From Escherichia coli O127:H6 str. E2348/69 (lineage in GTDB: Bacteria > Pseudomonadota > Gammaproteobacteria > Enterobacterales > Enterobacteriaceae): a stretch of 64,000 nucleotides of DNA. The position numbers are program-made. How positions within the stretch are numbered: the stretch's first letter is position 1; every line of letters starts with the position of its first letter. The stretch lies in assembly GCF_000026545.1 (NCBI RefSeq), contig NC_011601.1; one strand, given 5' to 3'. Shown one piece after another: positions 22,301 through 28,300 of this stretch.

Positions 22301-25300
22301 CAGGACGAGGGCAGCATGGCGGTAAGCACATGCGAATCGTTTTCGGATGGACGGATGACGCCGTCACGAATAAGGGCTACAGACATAGTTAGACTCCATC
22401 TTAAAGTTGGTAATAGATTTATTAATGCGAGTGCGATTCATGCGTTTCGATCAATGTCGAAACTTTTTTATTTCTTCTTTCACGGATAATATTGAGTGTC
22501 TCAACACTTAATGAGAAAAATATCGCGAAGTAGAGATACTCTTTGGCAATATGAATGTTGAGACTATCGGCAACCAGCAATACACCGACAAACAATAAAA
22601 AGGTTAACGCCAGTATTTTTATTGACGGCGTGGCGTTAACGAAATCACCAATTGTTTTCGCCGCAAACATCATGACACCGACGGCAATCATTACGGCGGC
22701 AATCATGATAAATATATGCTGAGAAAGGCCGACGGCGGTGATCACCGAATCCAGGCTAAACACGATATCGAGCAGCATTATCTGTACAATGGCACCGCAC
22801 AACGACAGTTGCCGCGATCCGCTGCCATGTTCGTCTTCCTGCGCGGGCGACAGCTCTTCGCGTATCTCCTGTATCGCTTTATAAATCAGGAACAGCCCGC
22901 CCCCGAGCAGAATCAACGTGCGGAACGAAATCTCCAGCGTCAGCACGGTAAAAAGCGGCTGGGTAATATGTGAAAGCCACGCAATGGATATCAGCAATAA
23001 TATCCGCATAATCATCGCGCAGCTTAAACCCAGTTTACGCGCCATATTTTGTTGTGATAACGGAAGTTTTGCCACCACCAGTGAAAGAAAAATAATATTA
23101 TCCACCCCAAGAATAATTTCCAGAAAGGTGAGGGTAATTAAAGTGAGCCAGATATCTGGCTGCATAAACCACAAAAACATGGGGTAATCCTTTATTCTCT
23201 TTATCTAAACTTTATAGCGGGCTGGATAATAGAGTTAATTTAATTAATGTTATAATGACGAATAATTTGTTGAATCTCGCTGATCTGTTCAGGCGTGAAA
23301 TTAACCGCGTAGCGGCTATCACCAACATCATGCCCCATAAGCTGCAACGCTTTTTTCACCGCAGCCGGGGAGAATGCTACTTTATAAAGATCGGTACGCA
23401 GGCCCGTTACACTCTCCTGTGCTTCATAAGACCCTTCAATATCACCGGCATGGAAGCGAGACCAGATGGCATTGATTTCTCGCGGCGCGATGTTGGCGAG
23501 CCCAGAGATACAGGCTGAACATCCCTCGACAAACCCTTTATGGATCAGCGAATCCGGGCCGTTGAGCACATTAAAGCCGTCAATGTCGCGCACCGCATCG
23601 AGAAAACCCTTCAGGCTTTCGTCGCTTCCGGCGCTGTCTTTAATCCCAATGATATTGGGGTGCGACGCCAGAGCACGCGCGGTTTCTGGCTGGATCGTAT
23701 TGCCAGTGCGGGCCGGGATGTTATAGAGAAACATCGGAATGCTCAGTGCGTCGGCAATTGCGCTGTAATGCGCAATCAACTCTTCCTGTTTCAGCGGTAC
23801 GAAGTAAGGGGCAATGACCGACACGGCATCTACGCCAAGTTTTTCAATCTGCTGACCCAGACGAATCGTTTCGCGCGTAGAGATCTCGCCAATGTGTGCC
23901 ACGACCGGCGCACGACCAGCCACTTCATCCACGCAGGTTTGCGTAACGCTGAGCTTCTCCTGTTCATTCAACACAAAAAATTCGCCGTTGGTGCCGCCGC
24001 AAAAAATCGCGTTACCCGCTTCCAGTTGACGATTCACCTGCACTTTTAACGCCGGGATATTCAGACTGCCGGTCGCGGTAAACGGGGTGACGATAGCGGT
24101 TAATACACCTTCAATGGTTTTCGGCATGATTTATTCCTTAAATTGATGTTGCGGAAACAGTGTTTGGTAAATGGCCTGTACGTCCTGTAGATCAAGCTGG
24201 CACGGCACATTGTTCATAAGGCGCTTCACGTTCAGTGCCGCCTCGCTAAGAGAGGCAATATCCTCTGGCGGTACGCCGAGATCTGCGAGATTGTTGGGTA
24301 GCTTGAGTTGATTGACTAATGCCTGTAACCAGGTCACCAGGGCATGAGATTTTTCTTCCGCGCTCAGGGCGGTTTCCGCATCGGGAATGCAATCCCAGAC
24401 CCGGGCAAATTTCTCGACCGCCCAGGGGCGAACAAACGCCATGCACGGCGCCAGCAAGATGGCATTCGCGACGCCATGCGGCAGATGATATTTGCCACCT
24501 AACGGGTAGGAGAGCGCATGAACGAGATGCGTGCCCGCATGGGTTATCGCTACGCCGCCATAGTAAGACGCCCACAGCATTTCCAGTTTTGCGCGCAGAT
24601 CCTGAGGATCGTTCACGGCGGGTTGAATGTGCCGGAAAAGTTTACTTAACCCAGTCAGCGCCGCGTTATCGCTGACCGGATTTGCCACGGTCGCGGTAAA
24701 ACACTCCAGTAAGTGGCAAAGAGCATCAATGCCCGTGGACGCCGCAATATGCGCAGGCATGCTGGTGGTCAGTTCCGGGAAAAGCGCCACATAGTCTGGT
24801 AACAGCATCTGGGAAATAATACCCACCTTCGTGCTTTGCTCAGGGATTGCCAGAATCGCATTCGGCGTGGCTTCTGAGCCGGTTCCGGCGGTTGTAGGAA
24901 TCAACCATGATTGCACCCGCTGAGTTGGTTTTTCACCCGCAAGCAGCGCATCCAGCCCCGGAGATTGTGGATGGCAAAGCACCGATAGCAGCTTTGCCAC
25001 ATCCAACACGCTGCCACCGCCGATCCCGACCACCACATCAAAAGAGGCATCGCCAAGGACATCCATTAGCTGGCGCACATCATGATGCGTGGGCTCTGCG
25101 GGCACATTATCGATAACGTTAACCTGCGGGCAGTGCTGTTCCAGTAAGGCGCGAATCTGCTGCACACCGTCGAGCTGCGCAATATTACGGTCAGTGACCA
25201 GCAGCATTTTTCTGATGTCGGGTAAGAGCGACGTCAGGGAAGGGATAGCGCCTGCGCCGCTCAGTATCGTGCTATTGATAATTACCACAAATAACCTCTC

Positions 25301-28300
25301 TTCTGGTGATTGAATTCAATCATTCAAAATGCCGTAGCCTACGTAACATGGTCTAATTTTATAATTTATTCGAGTGATTAATAACTTGAGCTTGCTCACA
25401 TTTAATCAATTGTGATTGAATATAATCATTATTATCATAAAACAACCTGGAGTGATGATGGAAAAGGGAATCACTAAGCCGAGCATTCTCGTCGTTGCCG
25501 ATGATTTCACGGGAGCCAACGACGCGGGGGTAAGCCTGGCGCAGGTGGGGCATACAGTTGATGTGGCCTTTGAAATGCCTTATCACGGTGATGCCAGCGT
25601 ATGGGTGATTAACAGCGACAGCCGGGCGATGGATCCTAAGCTGGCGGCGATGAAAATAACCTCGCTGATGAGTCATCTCCCTCTGGCGAATAACCCGCCG
25701 CTCGTGATTAAAAAGATAGATTCCACGCTTCGAGGCAATATCGGCGCAGAAATTGAAGCCCTGATGAAGGCATGCGGTATAACGGGCGCAGTGATTGCCC
25801 CCGCATTTCCTCAGGCGGGAAGGACCACAGTGGCCGGTGAGTGTTGGGTAAACGGTGTGCGGATAACGGAAACCGAGTTTGCCAGCGATCCGAAAACCCC
25901 GGTATTGAGCGCCCGAATTGCGGACATCATCCGGTTGCAGACGGCCATTCCATGCCAGCCCGTTACGGTTTCTCAGCTCAGCCATTTGTCTTATGAGCAA
26001 CCGTGGATTGGCGTGATAGATGCGCAGACGGACAGCGACCTGGATCGCATCGCTGCCGCTGTGATGCAGGCTAAACAACCGCTACTGCTGGTCGGCTCCG
26101 CTGGTATTTGTGATGCCGTTGCCCGGCGCTCCGCGATTATGCCGCCACCCACCGTGCTGGCCATTATTGGTTCAATGAGCGAAATCGCTCAACGGCAGAT
26201 CGCCACACTGCATTCACACCCACGTATCACACAGATATACGTCGATGTTGAACACATTCTGGCAGGCAATGCCAGTGACTATGACGCGCGTATTGTGCAG
26301 GCCTTGCAGAAAGGCGACCACTGCATTGTCCACACCTGTAACGATTCTGTAGCAAGGCATCAGATCGACACCCTTTGCCAGCGTTGGCAGATGAGTCGCG
26401 CTGCACTTGGGGAAAAAATTTGTCGGTTTCTTGGCGAACTTACCCGGCAAGTTCTGCTTCGCACAATGCCCGATGCGCTTTATCTCTCTGGTGGCGATGT
26501 CGCAATGGCAACAGCCAGTGCGTTAGGCGCGACCGGGTTTCGTATTACGGGGAAGGTGGCGCAATGCGTTCCATATGGTCACTTTCTGGGCGGCGTCTGG
26601 TCCCGTTCGGTGATGACGAAAGCCGGTGGGTTTGGCGATGAGACCACGTTGCATCAGGTTCTGAATTTTATCGAGGAGAAGCGTAGTGAATAACATTATT
26701 GCGGTAACGATGGGCGATCCGGCGGGTATTGGCCCGGAGATCATTATTAAATCCCTGAGCGAAGCCGGGCTTGCTGGTACCCCGGTGGTGGTGGTGGGCT
26801 GTGTGCGCACGCTGCGACGTATTATGGCGATGAATATCACGCCGCAGGCAGAGTTACGCGTCATTCAAAAGGTGTGCGACGCCCACTTTGCTCCCGGCGT
26901 GATTAACGTGATGGATGAGCCTCTGGCTAACCCCGATGCGCTGACACCTGGTGTGGTACAGGCTGCGGCAGGCGATTTAGCGTATCGCTGTATCAAACGT
27001 GCAACGGCCCTGGCCTTATCAGGCGAGGTGAAAGCCATAGCCACTGCGCCGTTGAATAAAGAAGCGCTGCATCTTGGCGGGCATAACTATCCGGGGCATA
27101 CGGAATTGCTGGCCCATCTTACCGGCAGCAAAGAGTACGCGATGGTGCTCTATACCGATAAGCTCAAGGTTATCCATATTTCGACTCACATCTCACTGCG
27201 TAAATTCCTGGATACTTTGAATGGTGAAAGGGTCAAAACGGTTATTCGAGTTGCGAACCACTTCCTGAAACGTGTCGGCATTGAGCGTCCGCGTATTGCC
27301 GTGGCGGGTGTAAATCCACATGCAGGGGAACACGGTTTATTCGGCACTGAGGAAATCGAGATTATCGCACCTGCGATTGAAGCAATGCAGGCCGAAGATA
27401 TTGATGTTACTGGCCCGTGCCCGCCAGATACCGTGTTCATGCAGTGCCATGAAGGGCTATTCGATATGGTGGTGGCTATGTACCATGATCAGGGGCATAT
27501 CCCTTTAAAACTGCTTGGATTTTATGATGGGGTGAATATCACCGCCGGGTTGCCATTTATTCGCACTTCTGCCGACCACGGCACCGCGTTTGATATTGCC
27601 TGGACAGGAAAAGCCAAGTCTGAGAGCATGGCAGTTTCCATCCAGTTAGCAATGCAGATTTCGCGAGAATAAAATGAAGGGATATAACCGGTTAGAGCAG
27701 ATCATGGATTACCTGAAAAGCCATAATCTGGTCACCGTTGATGAGCTGGTGGCGGTAACCAATGCGTCGCCGGCTACGATTCGTCGAGACCTGATAAAAC
27801 TCGATGAGCAGGGTGTTATCAGCCGTACACACGGCGGTGTGACCCTCAACCGGTTTATTCCTACCCAACCGACTACCCATGAGAAAATGCAGCGCAGCCT
27901 GGCGGAAAAACATGCTATCGCCAGCGCAGCGGCGTCAATGGTCAAAGCGGGGGATTCCGTCGTCCTTGATGCCGGTACGACAATGATTGAACTTGCGCGG
28001 CAGATTACACATTTACCGCTTCGCGTGATCACCAGCGACCTGCATATCGCGCTTTTTTTGGCTGAATTCAAGCAAATTGAAGTGACGATTATCGGCGGAC
28101 GTATCGACGACTCCAGCCAGTCCTGCATTGGCGAACATGGTCGTAAATTGCTGCAAAATACCTGGCCGGACGTGGCATTTTTAAGCTGTAACAGCTGGGA
28201 TCTTGAAAAGGGTATTACAGCACCCACGGAAGAGAAAGCCGCACTAAAACGCGATCTTATCGCGCATGCTTCGCGCAAAATTCTCCTGGCTGACAGCTCA

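What the first reader, a model, noticed from the sequence alone, without database searches (positions are those of the whole stretch)
25289..25454. Perfect 16-bp palindrome and related half-sites in the islet divergent promoter
TGATTGAATTCAATCA (25307-25322) is a perfect palindrome. A 14/16 variant TGATTGAATATAATCA (25413-25428) overlaps a TATAAT -10-like hexamer, and an AATCA-N4-TGATT element lies at 25404-25417. Repeated TGATTGA half-sites in a 166-bp region between divergent operons, next to a DeoR regulator gene, are strong operator candidates.
Basis: seen in the sequence. Interest (0 to 1): 0.6.

Follow-up and report, generated by a model that had tools for sequence, protein, structure and literature searches.

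The report
Operator pair of an islet repressor
Two matching 16-bp palindromes between two back-to-back operons of an E. coli sugar-acid islet are very probably the docking sites of the islet's own DeoR-family repressor: a well-supported but ordinary kind of genetic switch.

Summary
TGATTGAATTCAATCA (25307-25322, O1) and TGATTGAATATAATCA (25413-25428, O2) lie 106 bp apart. They sit in the 169-bp gap between a Fe-ADH operon (minus strand) and dtnK-pdxA2-deoR (plus strand). The locus is a 9-gene islet between nagE and glnS of E. coli E2348/69.

A perfect 16-bp palindrome alone is not remarkable: the window has 4, against 1.2 expected. The second copy and the comparative data are what count.
- In 48 other species with the same gene order, TGATT-N6-AATCA sits at the same two places, 103-106 bp apart.
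- O2 is identical in 46 of 49 loci, although DtnK is only about 50% identical.
- In 1.03 Mb of fetched DNA the strict motif occurs 74 times in these gaps. It occurs twice elsewhere, both upstream of a rearranged orthologous operon in Actinobacillus.
- A 52%-identical regulator in a gut metagenome contig also carries three copies.

Best reading: these are operators of the islet's uncharacterised DeoR/GlpR-family repressor. O2 covers an invariant TATAAT. O1 lies in the leftward leader. A conserved CRP-like site and a degenerate third site lie between them. Looping, CRP activation and a phosphorylated inducer are inferred, not shown. This is a new member of a known kind, of modest interest.

The parts
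25307..25322 (.). O1: perfect 16-bp palindrome TGATTGAATTCAATCA. It lies 19 bp upstream of the Fe-ADH GTG start and just upstream of its Shine-Dalgarno sequence.
   Evidence: The TGATT arm is invariant in 48/48 loci, the TCA of the other arm is invariant, and the central 6 bp vary. Mean major-allele frequency is 0.86, against 0.54-0.69 in the flanks.
25413..25428 (.). O2: TGATTGAATATAATCA, 14/16 to O1, 30 bp upstream of the dtnK start.
   Evidence: It is identical in 46 of 49 loci, including the central bases. Mean major-allele frequency is 0.99.
25421..25426 (+). TATAAT inside O2: candidate -10 hexamer of the rightward (dtnK) promoter.
   Evidence: It is invariant, whereas the equivalent centre of O1 varies freely. 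That points to a second constraint on O2. No usable -35 lies upstream. No transcription start data; inferred.
25393..25408 (.). O3 candidate: TGCTCACATTTAATCA, a degenerate site 20 bp from O2.
   Evidence: The AATCA arm and its flanks are invariant. The PWM score is only 12.3, against 24-27 for O1 and O2. Tandem sites 18 bp apart occur in Actinobacillus. Status uncertain.
25382..25403 (.). CRP-like site TAACTTGAGCTTGCTCACATTT (core CTTGA-N6-TCACA), centred at 25392.5.
   Evidence: It matches 16/22 of the CRP consensus; 0.2% of shuffles of the gap do as well. NTTGA-N6-TCACA is present in all aligned species. Its centre lies 31 and 32 bp from the centres of the two candidate -10 hexamers, the class II geometry. 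A canonical TGTGA-N6-TCACG sits next to the operators in Actinobacillus. Inferred.
25350..25369 (-). Conserved block ATGGnCTAAnTTTATAATTTAT: candidate -10 (TATAAA, reverse complement of 25358-25363) and start site (about 25351) of the leftward promoter.
   Evidence: Mean major-allele frequency is 0.88, and no indels separate it from the CRP-like site in any species. The promoter assignment is inferred.
25458..26693 (+). dtnK, D-threonate kinase (DUF1537 family); first gene of the rightward operon.
   Evidence: NCBIfam equivalog NF047819, 533 bits against a cut-off of 450. RefSeq annotation.
26686..27672 (+). pdxA2-type D-threonate 4-phosphate dehydrogenase.
   Evidence: NF002891, 680 bits against a cut-off of 583. 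It overlaps dtnK by 8 nt.
27674..28435 (+). DeoR/GlpR-family regulator, the proposed binder of O1, O2 and O3. It starts 1 nt after the pdxA2 stop, so it is co-transcribed and autoregulated.
   Evidence: Pfam HTH_DeoR 6e-19 and DeoRC 3e-47. It falls below every named NCBIfam equivalog cut-off. Databases give only generic names. It is 24% identical to E. coli DeoR.
24131..25288 (-). Iron-containing alcohol dehydrogenase; first gene of the leftward operon.
19456..24127 (-). Rest of the leftward operon: DHDPS/NanA-family lyase (23240-24127), TerC (22422-23180), BNR_2 sialidase-like protein (21217-22386), YiaL/NanQ-family protein (20750-21220), SLC13/DASS permease (19456-20736).

Best explanation
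O1 and O2, and probably the degenerate O3, are operators of the DeoR/GlpR-family regulator encoded as the third gene of the rightward operon. The consensus is RTGATT-N6-AATCAY.

Shown by sequence and comparative analysis:
- The motif is present, paired and positionally fixed.
- It is the most conserved feature of the gap.
- It co-occurs with the regulator across Enterobacterales, Vibrio, Actinobacillus and a gut metagenome lineage.

Inferred:
1. Without inducer, the repressor sits on O2 and hides the invariant TATAAT of the dtnK-pdxA2-regulator promoter. It therefore also limits its own synthesis.
2. The repressor also sits on O1, about +30 to +45 of the leftward Fe-ADH operon.
3. The family typically forms tetramers or larger assemblies, and the sites are 103-106 bp (about 10 helical turns) apart. 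One oligomer may therefore bridge O1 and O2/O3 and loop out the leftward promoter and a central CRP-like site. This would let the weaker O1 borrow affinity from the strong O2.
4. The CRP-like site lies about 41 bp from both putative start sites and would activate both promoters once the loop opens.
5. The inducer is a pathway intermediate, most plausibly 4-phospho-D-threonate made by DtnK. This is by analogy with other family members, whose effectors are sugar phosphates.
For: - Motif and spacing in the window.
- Regulator family.
- Conserved gene order Fe-ADH <-> dtnK-pdxA2-regulator in about 48 species.
- Both sites present at the same aligned positions.
- O2 identical in 46/49 loci; O1 arms invariant with a variable centre; spacing 103-106 bp in 47 loci.
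- Conservation of 0.99 (O2), 0.86 (O1) and 0.91 (25380-25412), against 0.54-0.69 for the rest of the gap.
- Strict motif found 74 times inside these gaps and only twice elsewhere in 1.03 Mb. Both exceptions lie upstream of the rearranged orthologous operon of Actinobacillus porcinus, beside a canonical CRP site.
- Motif-first metagenome scan: all 13 sampled hits with dtnK, Fe-ADH or regulator homologues had 103-106 bp spacing. A 52%-identical, divergently arranged regulator carries three strict sites.
- E. coli polymorphisms fall outside the half-sites.
- The region occurs once per genome, so it is not a dispersed repeat.
- CRP-like match 16/22, P about 0.002.
- Precedents in the literature:
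  - E. coli DeoR binds 16-bp palindromes TGTTAGAA-TTCTAACA / -TACTAACA (PMC5326754) and loops DNA (PMC8053113).
  - GlpR uses four operators together with CRP at glpFK (PMC2753651).
  - Brucella VdtR is a DeoR-family repressor of a DUF1537 tetronate cluster. It binds its promoter and is not released by the free acids (PMC10580937).
Against: - There are no binding, transcription-start or expression data for this locus.
- The whole E2348/69 genome could not be scanned, so other regulon members or chance copies are not excluded.
- The loose pattern TGATT-N6-AATCA twice at 96-116 bp is common in metagenomes. Of 80 sampled hits, 65 were unrelated.
- O1's right arm is degenerate (GCTCA) in about 20 of the 48 loci scored, and O1 is lost in one species (L025).
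- Spacing is 92 bp in Vibrio and 18 bp in Actinobacillus, so the 10-turn loop geometry holds only within Enterobacterales.
- O3 scores no better than random background hits by PWM. Its invariance could be due to the overlapping CRP-like or promoter sequence.
- The CRP left half is only NTTGA.
- In many species an alternative TATAAT at 25401-25406 could be the rightward -10.
Confidence: 0.78

Rival explanations
1. The sites are bound by the islet regulator, but it acts as an activator (as FucR does in this family) or as a dual regulator rather than a simple repressor.
For: The family contains activators; NCBIfam lists the L-fucose operon activator among the hits. Neither promoter has a recognisable -35, so some activator is needed.
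Against: O2 covers the invariant TATAAT and O1 lies downstream of the likely leftward start. Both are repressor positions. A CRP-like site already accounts for activation. Most characterised family members, including the DUF1537-cluster regulator VdtR (PMC10580937), are repressors.
Confidence: 0.08
2. The conserved sequences are only promoter elements (-10 boxes, UP-like AT tracts, a CRP site), and their palindromic look is incidental. No dedicated regulator binds them.
For: O2 contains a perfect TATAAT. The gap is AT-rich. Perfect 16-bp palindromes occur by chance in this window.
Against: - The invariant bases are the symmetric arms TGATT and AATCA, not just the TATAAT.
- O1 has the same arms but no conserved -10 in its centre, and it sits 19-25 bp from a start codon.
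- The same arms recur beside regulator orthologues in loci with a different promoter layout.
Confidence: 0.05
3. The sites are targets of a host-wide regulator with a similar consensus. Candidates are E. coli DeoR (nucleoside catabolism; deoO is 12/16 identical to O1) or Fur (14/19 match at 25418-25436).
For:: deoO matches O1 at 12/16; the Fur box matches at 14/19 (2.6% of shuffles of the gap do as well). The deoO sequences are taken from PMC5326754.
Against: - The differences from deoO are symmetric (positions 3, 5, 12, 14) and invariant across species, so this is a distinct specificity.
- The Fur-like match depends on flank bases 25429-25436. These vary even within E. coli and between species.
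- O1 was not among the best Fur matches in the gap.
- The motif tracks the islet regulator, not host taxonomy.
Confidence: 0.04
4. O1 acts at the RNA level, as a hairpin in the 5' leader of the Fe-ADH mRNA next to the ribosome-binding site.
For: O1 lies in the probable leader, 6 nt from the Shine-Dalgarno sequence. A palindrome can fold.
Against: - The leader folds no better than shuffled sequence (-10 kcal/mol, z = 0.17).
- In many species O1 is asymmetric (TGATTGATTTCGCTCA), which breaks the stem without compensating changes.
- O2 has the same sequence in what is probably untranscribed DNA.
Confidence: 0.01

Closest known systems
E. coli DeoR and its operators deoO1/O2/OE (nucleoside catabolism)
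   Same: - Same regulator family.
- The operators are 16-bp palindromes, TGTTAGAA-TTCTAACA and a centre variant TGTTAGAA-TACTAACA (PMC5326754). They are 12/16 identical to O1.
- The same pairing is seen here: one perfect site and one centre variant.
- Several operators cooperate through DNA looping (PMC8053113).
   Different: - The islet regulator is only 24% identical to DeoR.
- The half-site differs at two symmetric positions.
- The sites are about 105 bp apart, not about 600 bp.
- The promoters are divergent rather than tandem.
- The target pathway differs.
GlpR and the glp operators (glpFK, glpTQ-glpACB)
   Same: - DeoR-family repressor with several, partly tandem, operators.
- Promoters depend on cAMP-CRP.
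- The inducer is the phosphorylated product of the pathway's kinase. At glpFK there are four operators, CRP is required and the inducer is glycerol-3-phosphate (PMC2753651).
- Control of the divergent glpTQ-glpACB pair by operators acting at a distance is from my own knowledge (Larson et al. 1992).
   Different: The operator sequence, the number of sites and the regulon-wide scope all differ. Here only one locus is known.
NagC at the divergent nagE-nagBACD promoters (in this same window, about 17089-17420)
   Same: Two operators flank divergent promoters. The weak nagE operator depends on cooperative binding with the strong nagB operator through a DNA loop (PMC4288165, citing Plumbridge and Kolb 1993). 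A CAP site lying between the operators is from my own knowledge. This is the closest match in architecture to weak O1, strong O2 and a central CRP-like site.
   Different: NagC is a ROK-family protein with an unrelated operator sequence. Looping here is only inferred.
Brucella VdtR (DeoR-family repressor of the DUF1537 erythronate/L-threonate cluster)
   Same: A DeoR-family repressor encoded inside a tetronate-kinase (DUF1537) catabolic cluster. It binds the cluster promoter by EMSA. The cluster is induced by growth on the acid sugar, but the free acids do not release the protein, which points to a downstream intermediate as effector (PMC10580937).
   Different: It controls a different pathway (the aldolase-type route for D-erythronate and L-threonate) in a different phylum. 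No binding motif was defined there, so the sites cannot be compared.

Membership tests
Operators of a locally encoded DeoR/GlpR-family regulator | A regulator with HTH_DeoR and DeoRC domains is encoded in the same gene cluster. | tested here: met
   Pfam HTH_DeoR 6.4e-19 and DeoRC 2.8e-47. Full-length alignment to AgaR, GlpR and YgbI models, all below their equivalog cut-offs.
Operators of a locally encoded DeoR/GlpR-family regulator | Repeated or palindromic sites lie in the cluster's promoter region. | tested here: met
   Two 16-bp palindromic sites and one extra half-site lie in the 169-bp divergent gap.
Operators of a locally encoded DeoR/GlpR-family regulator | The sites overlap core promoter elements or the early transcribed region. 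| tested here: inconclusive
   O2 contains an invariant TATAAT. Promoter scans give no consistent -35. No transcription-start data are available.
Operators of a locally encoded DeoR/GlpR-family regulator | The motif co-occurs with regulator orthologues across taxa, including rearranged loci. | tested here: met
   About 48 Enterobacterales species and Vibrio; Actinobacillus at 66% identity with a different layout; metagenome locus L120 at 52% identity with a divergent regulator.
Operators of a locally encoded DeoR/GlpR-family regulator | The motif is rare outside the regulated promoters. | tested here: met
   Zero strict hits elsewhere in the 64-kb window and in 1.03 Mb of loci, apart from the Actinobacillus gap; about 0.6 expected. 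The whole genome was not scanned.
Operators of a locally encoded DeoR/GlpR-family regulator | The protein binds the sites physically and is released by an effector. | not testable with these tools
   Needs EMSA or footprinting with purified protein.
E. coli DeoR (b0840) operator set | Sequence TGTTAGAA-TTCTAACA or -TACTAACA. | tested here: not met
   O1 matches 12/16 and O2 10/16. The mismatches are symmetric and conserved. The local regulator is 24% identical to DeoR.
cAMP-CRP binding site (central element 25382-25403) | Match to TGTGA-N6-TCACA within the 22-bp consensus. | tested here: inconclusive
   16/22 overall. The right half TCACA is perfect and near-invariant; the left half is NTTGA. 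0.2% of shuffles do as well.
cAMP-CRP binding site (central element 25382-25403) | Centred near -41.5, -61.5 or similar relative to a mapped transcription start. | not testable with these tools
   The centre at 25392.5 lies 31 and 32 bp from the centres of the two candidate -10 hexamers, which is class II geometry. The start sites are not mapped.
Fur box | 19-bp GATAATGATAATCATTATC conserved at the site. | tested here: not met
   14/19 at 25418-25436 in this strain. The bases that give the match (25429-25436) vary within E. coli and between species. O1 was not among the best Fur matches in the gap.

The most novel reading that the evidence does not exclude
The operator pair and its regulator control an undescribed catabolic route. 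In this route a sialic-acid-like 2-keto-3-deoxy sugar acid is split by the DHDPS-type lyase, the C4 aldehyde is reduced by the Fe-ADH to D-threonate, and DtnK and PdxA2 carry it to DHAP. One candidate substrate is 3-deoxy-D-lyxo-heptulosarate from pectin rhamnogalacturonan-II, whose stereochemistry would yield D-threonate. A single central CRP site would serve both divergent class II promoters inside a repression loop of about 105 bp.
Probability: 0.15. Interest if true: 0.55.

Novelty: new member of a known kind. Interest (0 to 1): 0.3.

Why it matters
The nagE-glnS islet is carried by about a fifth of complete E. coli genomes (1049 of 5426). It includes B2/ExPEC strains, where it is listed as an uncharacterised sugar-metabolism region (PMC12928451). 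Its regulator has only generic names, and I found no description of its binding site.

A defined operator motif (RTGATT-N6-AATCAY) and a clear promoter layout give simple handles:
- a reporter or EMSA assay to find the inducer, and so the unknown substrate of the leftward operon;
- a motif for regulon searches in other Enterobacterales.

The regulatory logic itself (a local repressor, paired operators, a probable CRP input) is textbook. The value is practical rather than conceptual.

Tried and rejected
1. A third match, TGGCTGAATTCAAGCA (28059-28074, 3 mismatches), lies inside the regulator gene. Its PWM score is 9.7. I treat it as a by-product of coding sequence.
2. A recurrent high-scoring site at +119 of the regulator gene in about 35 species (TGATTAARCTCGATCA) simply encodes the conserved peptide LIKLDQ. 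Its synonymous positions vary, and E. coli lacks it. Rejected.
3. The scanner's promoter TTGTGA-17-TATCAT (25410-25438) is rejected as the conserved promoter. Both hexamers vary, even within E. coli.
4. The RNA-hairpin reading of O1 is rejected (z = 0.17).
5. The Fur-box and DeoR (b0840) readings are rejected on conservation and mismatch pattern.
6. The extra TGATT at 25375-25379 and the direct repeat D2 are not conserved in other species.
It is useful only as a sample.
8. The sialidase-like protein has no sequence relative in the PDB.
9. Zhang et al. 2016 (PMC4961189) could not be read.
10. A full scan of the E2348/69 genome was not feasible with the available tools.

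
Full report
**Where this is**

The window is the chromosome of E. coli E2348/69 (100% identity). The finding lies in a nine-gene islet inserted between nagE and glnS. The islet is present once per genome in 1049 of 5426 complete E. coli genomes. A recent ExPEC comparison lists it as an uncharacterised sugar-metabolism region, 'GR 6' (PMC12928451).

Two operons diverge from a 169-bp gap (25289-25457).
- Leftward:
  - iron-containing alcohol dehydrogenase, 24131-25288
  - DHDPS/NanA-family lyase
  - TerC
  - BNR_2 sialidase-like protein
  - YiaL/NanQ-family protein
  - SLC13 permease
- Rightward:
  - dtnK (D-threonate kinase, 25458-26693)
  - a pdxA2-type D-threonate-4-phosphate dehydrogenase (26686-27672)
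  - a DeoR/GlpR-family regulator, starting one base later (27674-28435)

The regulator gene is therefore not next to the gap. It is the last gene of the rightward operon, so anything that controls that promoter also controls the regulator.

**The observation**

- O1, TGATTGAATTCAATCA, 25307-25322.
- O2, TGATTGAATATAATCA, 25413-25428, with TATAAT at 25421-25426.
- AATCA-N4-TGATT at 25404-25417.

The similarity extends to 19 nt, and the copies are 106 bp apart.

A perfect 16-bp palindrome is not in itself unusual. The window has four, and Markov simulations give 1.2 on average. The pairing is what is unlikely. A second copy with at most two mismatches in the same gap has a probability of about 2e-4 at the gap's own composition. 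Matches with up to three mismatches number 3 in 64 kb, against 0.33 expected.

**Comparative evidence**

A search of one genome per species with the regulator protein returned 53 loci. In about 48 of them the order Fe-ADH <-> dtnK-pdxA2-regulator is the same. These include Citrobacter, Enterobacter, Klebsiella, Kosakonia, Phytobacter, Pantoea, Erwinia and Vibrio litoralis.

In every one of these gaps a site matching the palindrome lies at each of the two positions, except that O1 has decayed in one species.
- O2 is letter-for-letter identical in 46 of 49 loci, although DtnK is only 43-58% identical in most of them.
- In O1 the arm TGATT and the TCA of the other arm are invariant, while the central six bases vary freely.
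- The start-to-start distance is 103-106 bp in 47 loci and 92 bp in Vibrio.

Mean conservation along the gap:

| Segment | Major-allele frequency |
|---|---|
| O2 | 0.99 |
| 25380-25412 | 0.91 |
| 25350-25369 | 0.88 |
| O1 | 0.86 |
| Remaining segments | 0.54-0.69 |

Within E. coli, the few polymorphisms fall in the junction before O2, just after O2, in the spacer of the central element, and at the centre of O1. None falls in the arms.

**Specificity and the link to the regulator**

The strict pattern TGATT-N6-AATCA occurs 74 times inside these gaps and only twice elsewhere in 1.03 Mb of fetched DNA; about 0.6 is expected by chance. It occurs nowhere else in the 64-kb window.

The two exceptions are in Actinobacillus porcinus. 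There a 66%-identical regulator sits in a differently arranged operon. The two sites lie in tandem, 18 bp apart, upstream of that operon and next to a canonical CRP site, TGTGAcgaagaTCACG.

A motif-first scan of metagenome contigs asked for two such sites 96-116 bp apart. This shows that the loose pattern alone is not diagnostic.
- All 13 sampled hits that carried dtnK, Fe-ADH or regulator homologues had 103-106 bp spacing.
- One of them (L120, GC 0.40) has a 52%-identical regulator transcribed divergently from the kinase, with three strict sites in the gap.
- Two further hits (L069, L096) are decayed copies of the same regulatory region left behind after both operons were deleted.

The motif therefore follows the regulator rather than the host or the promoter layout.

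**What the rest of the gap suggests**

This section is inference.

O2's centre is frozen while O1's is free, which points to a second constraint on O2. The obvious one is the TATAAT as the -10 of the dtnK promoter. No acceptable -35 lies upstream of it.

Between the sites is an invariant block containing NTTGA-N6-TCACA (25385-25400). It matches 16 of 22 positions of the CRP consensus, and 0.2% of shuffles do as well. Its centre (25392.5) is 31 bp from the centre of the TATAAT. It is 32 bp from the centre of TATAAA on the other strand (25358-25363), which lies in the second conserved block. No indels occur between these three elements in any species. Thirty-two base pairs is the class II CRP geometry, so one CRP dimer could serve both promoters.

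On this reading the elements sit as follows:

| Element | Position relative to the inferred start |
|---|---|
| O2 | about -20 to -5 of the rightward promoter |
| O3 candidate, TGCTCACATTTAATCA (25393-25408) | overlaps the CRP-like site |
| O1 | about +30 to +45 of the leftward transcript, just before its ribosome-binding site |

O3's PWM score is no better than background. Its reality therefore rests only on its invariance, its 20-bp offset from O2 and the tandem arrangement in Actinobacillus.

In species where position 25402 is A, an alternative TATAAT at 25401-25406 could be the rightward -10. O2 would then sit at the start site. Either way it is an operator position.

**Most likely mechanism**

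The islet's DeoR-family protein represses both operons and itself by binding O2, O1 and perhaps O3. Members of this family form tetramers or larger assemblies and cooperate between separated operators. E. coli DeoR loops DNA between its 16-bp palindromes (PMC8053113). GlpR uses four operators together with CRP at glpFK (PMC2753651).

A spacing of 103-106 bp is about ten helical turns. O1 is the weaker and more variable site. These two facts fit a loop in which strong O2 helps weak O1, as described for the nagE and nagB operators of NagC (PMC4288165).

The inducer is probably a phosphorylated intermediate such as 4-phospho-D-threonate. In Brucella, the DeoR-family repressor VdtR of a related DUF1537 cluster is induced by growth on the acid sugar but is not released by the free acids in vitro (PMC10580937).

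I put the operator assignment at about 0.8-0.85. The loop, CRP and inducer steps are each nearer 0.4-0.5.

**Rivals**

- RNA hairpin in the leftward leader: rejected. The leader folds no better than shuffles (z = 0.17), and asymmetric O1 variants show no compensating changes.
- Fur: the 14/19 match overlapping O2 depends on flank bases that vary within E. coli.
- E. coli DeoR proper: its operator is 12/16 identical to O1 (sequences from PMC5326754). The four differences are symmetric and fixed, and the local regulator is only 24% identical to DeoR.
- 'Just promoter elements': this does not explain identical arms at O1 or in rearranged loci.
- Activator rather than repressor: this remains possible at low probability.

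**Novelty**

The regulator carries only generic names. Full-text searches found no paper on this motif or regulator. Curated regulon databases could not be consulted.

The finding is a new member of a familiar kind: a local DeoR-family repressor with paired palindromic operators and a probable CRP input. Its practical value is as a handle on the unknown substrate of an islet common in B2/ExPEC E. coli.

**Limits**

There are no binding, start-site or expression data. The whole genome was not scanned. The metagenome scan was truncated. CRP and promoter assignments rest on consensus matching and conserved geometry.

Noticed in passing
L069 814-932 and L096 1024-1143 (metagenome contigs): A recognisable copy of the whole regulatory region survives with both flanking operons deleted. 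It keeps O1, the leftward -10 block, the CRP-like block and a decayed O2. Only about 6 Fe-ADH codons remain, and the neighbours are iron-uptake genes. It looks like a deletion scar.
   Followed up: partly
window 19456-25288 with 25458-27672: The gene content suggests an undescribed route: BNR_2 sialidase-like protein, NanQ/YiaL-like protein, DHDPS-type lyase, Fe-ADH, then DtnK and PdxA2. A 2-keto-3-deoxy sugar acid would be cleaved to pyruvate plus a C4 aldehyde, which is reduced to D-threonate and taken to DHAP. 3-deoxy-D-lyxo-heptulosarate (pectin RG-II) would give the right stereochemistry. This is my own chemical reasoning and is untested.
   Followed up: partly
window 21217-22386 (-): The sialidase-family protein matches only Pfam BNR_2, no NCBIfam model and no PDB sequence. 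It appears to lack a signal peptide, judging by eye from its N-terminus.
   Followed up: partly
L005 1781-5504 compared with window 19456-23180: The transporter module of the leftward operon is swapped between lineages. E. coli, Klebsiella oxytoca and Kluyvera have TerC plus an SLC13 permease. Enterobacter-type loci have a sodium:solute (SSS) symporter plus an SDR oxidoreductase.
   Followed up: partly
window 25418-25436: A Fur-box-like 14/19 match (GAATATAATCATTATTATC) overlaps O2 in this strain. The flank bases that create it are not conserved.
   Followed up: yes
window 26176-26191: A near-palindrome, TGAGCGAAATCGCTCA, lies inside dtnK. Its GCTCA arm is the variant arm seen in the Enterobacter-type O1. 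The PWM score is low (12.8) and it is probably chance.
   Followed up: no
window 18022-18037, 23146-23161, 41387-41402: Three other perfect 16-bp palindromes lie elsewhere in the window: TTGGTGAATTCACCAA, AGCCAGATATCTGGCT and ACAGGCATATGCCTGT. The first is inside nagE and the second inside the TerC gene; the location of the third was not examined.
   Followed up: no
L053 5143-5390: In Actinobacillus porcinus the first reading frame after the operators encodes only the N-terminal part of a DUF1537 kinase (MELLIIADDFTGANDTG...), just ahead of a pdxA-like gene. A full-length kinase homologue lies further downstream (7388-8629). This is either a split or a remnant gene.
   Followed up: no
L025 about 7640-7665 (Klebsiella sp. 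BIGb0407): This is the only species in the set where O1 has decayed (GGATGGATTACGCCCT) while O2 is kept (TGATTCAATATAATCA). O1 is therefore dispensable in at least one lineage.
   Followed up: no
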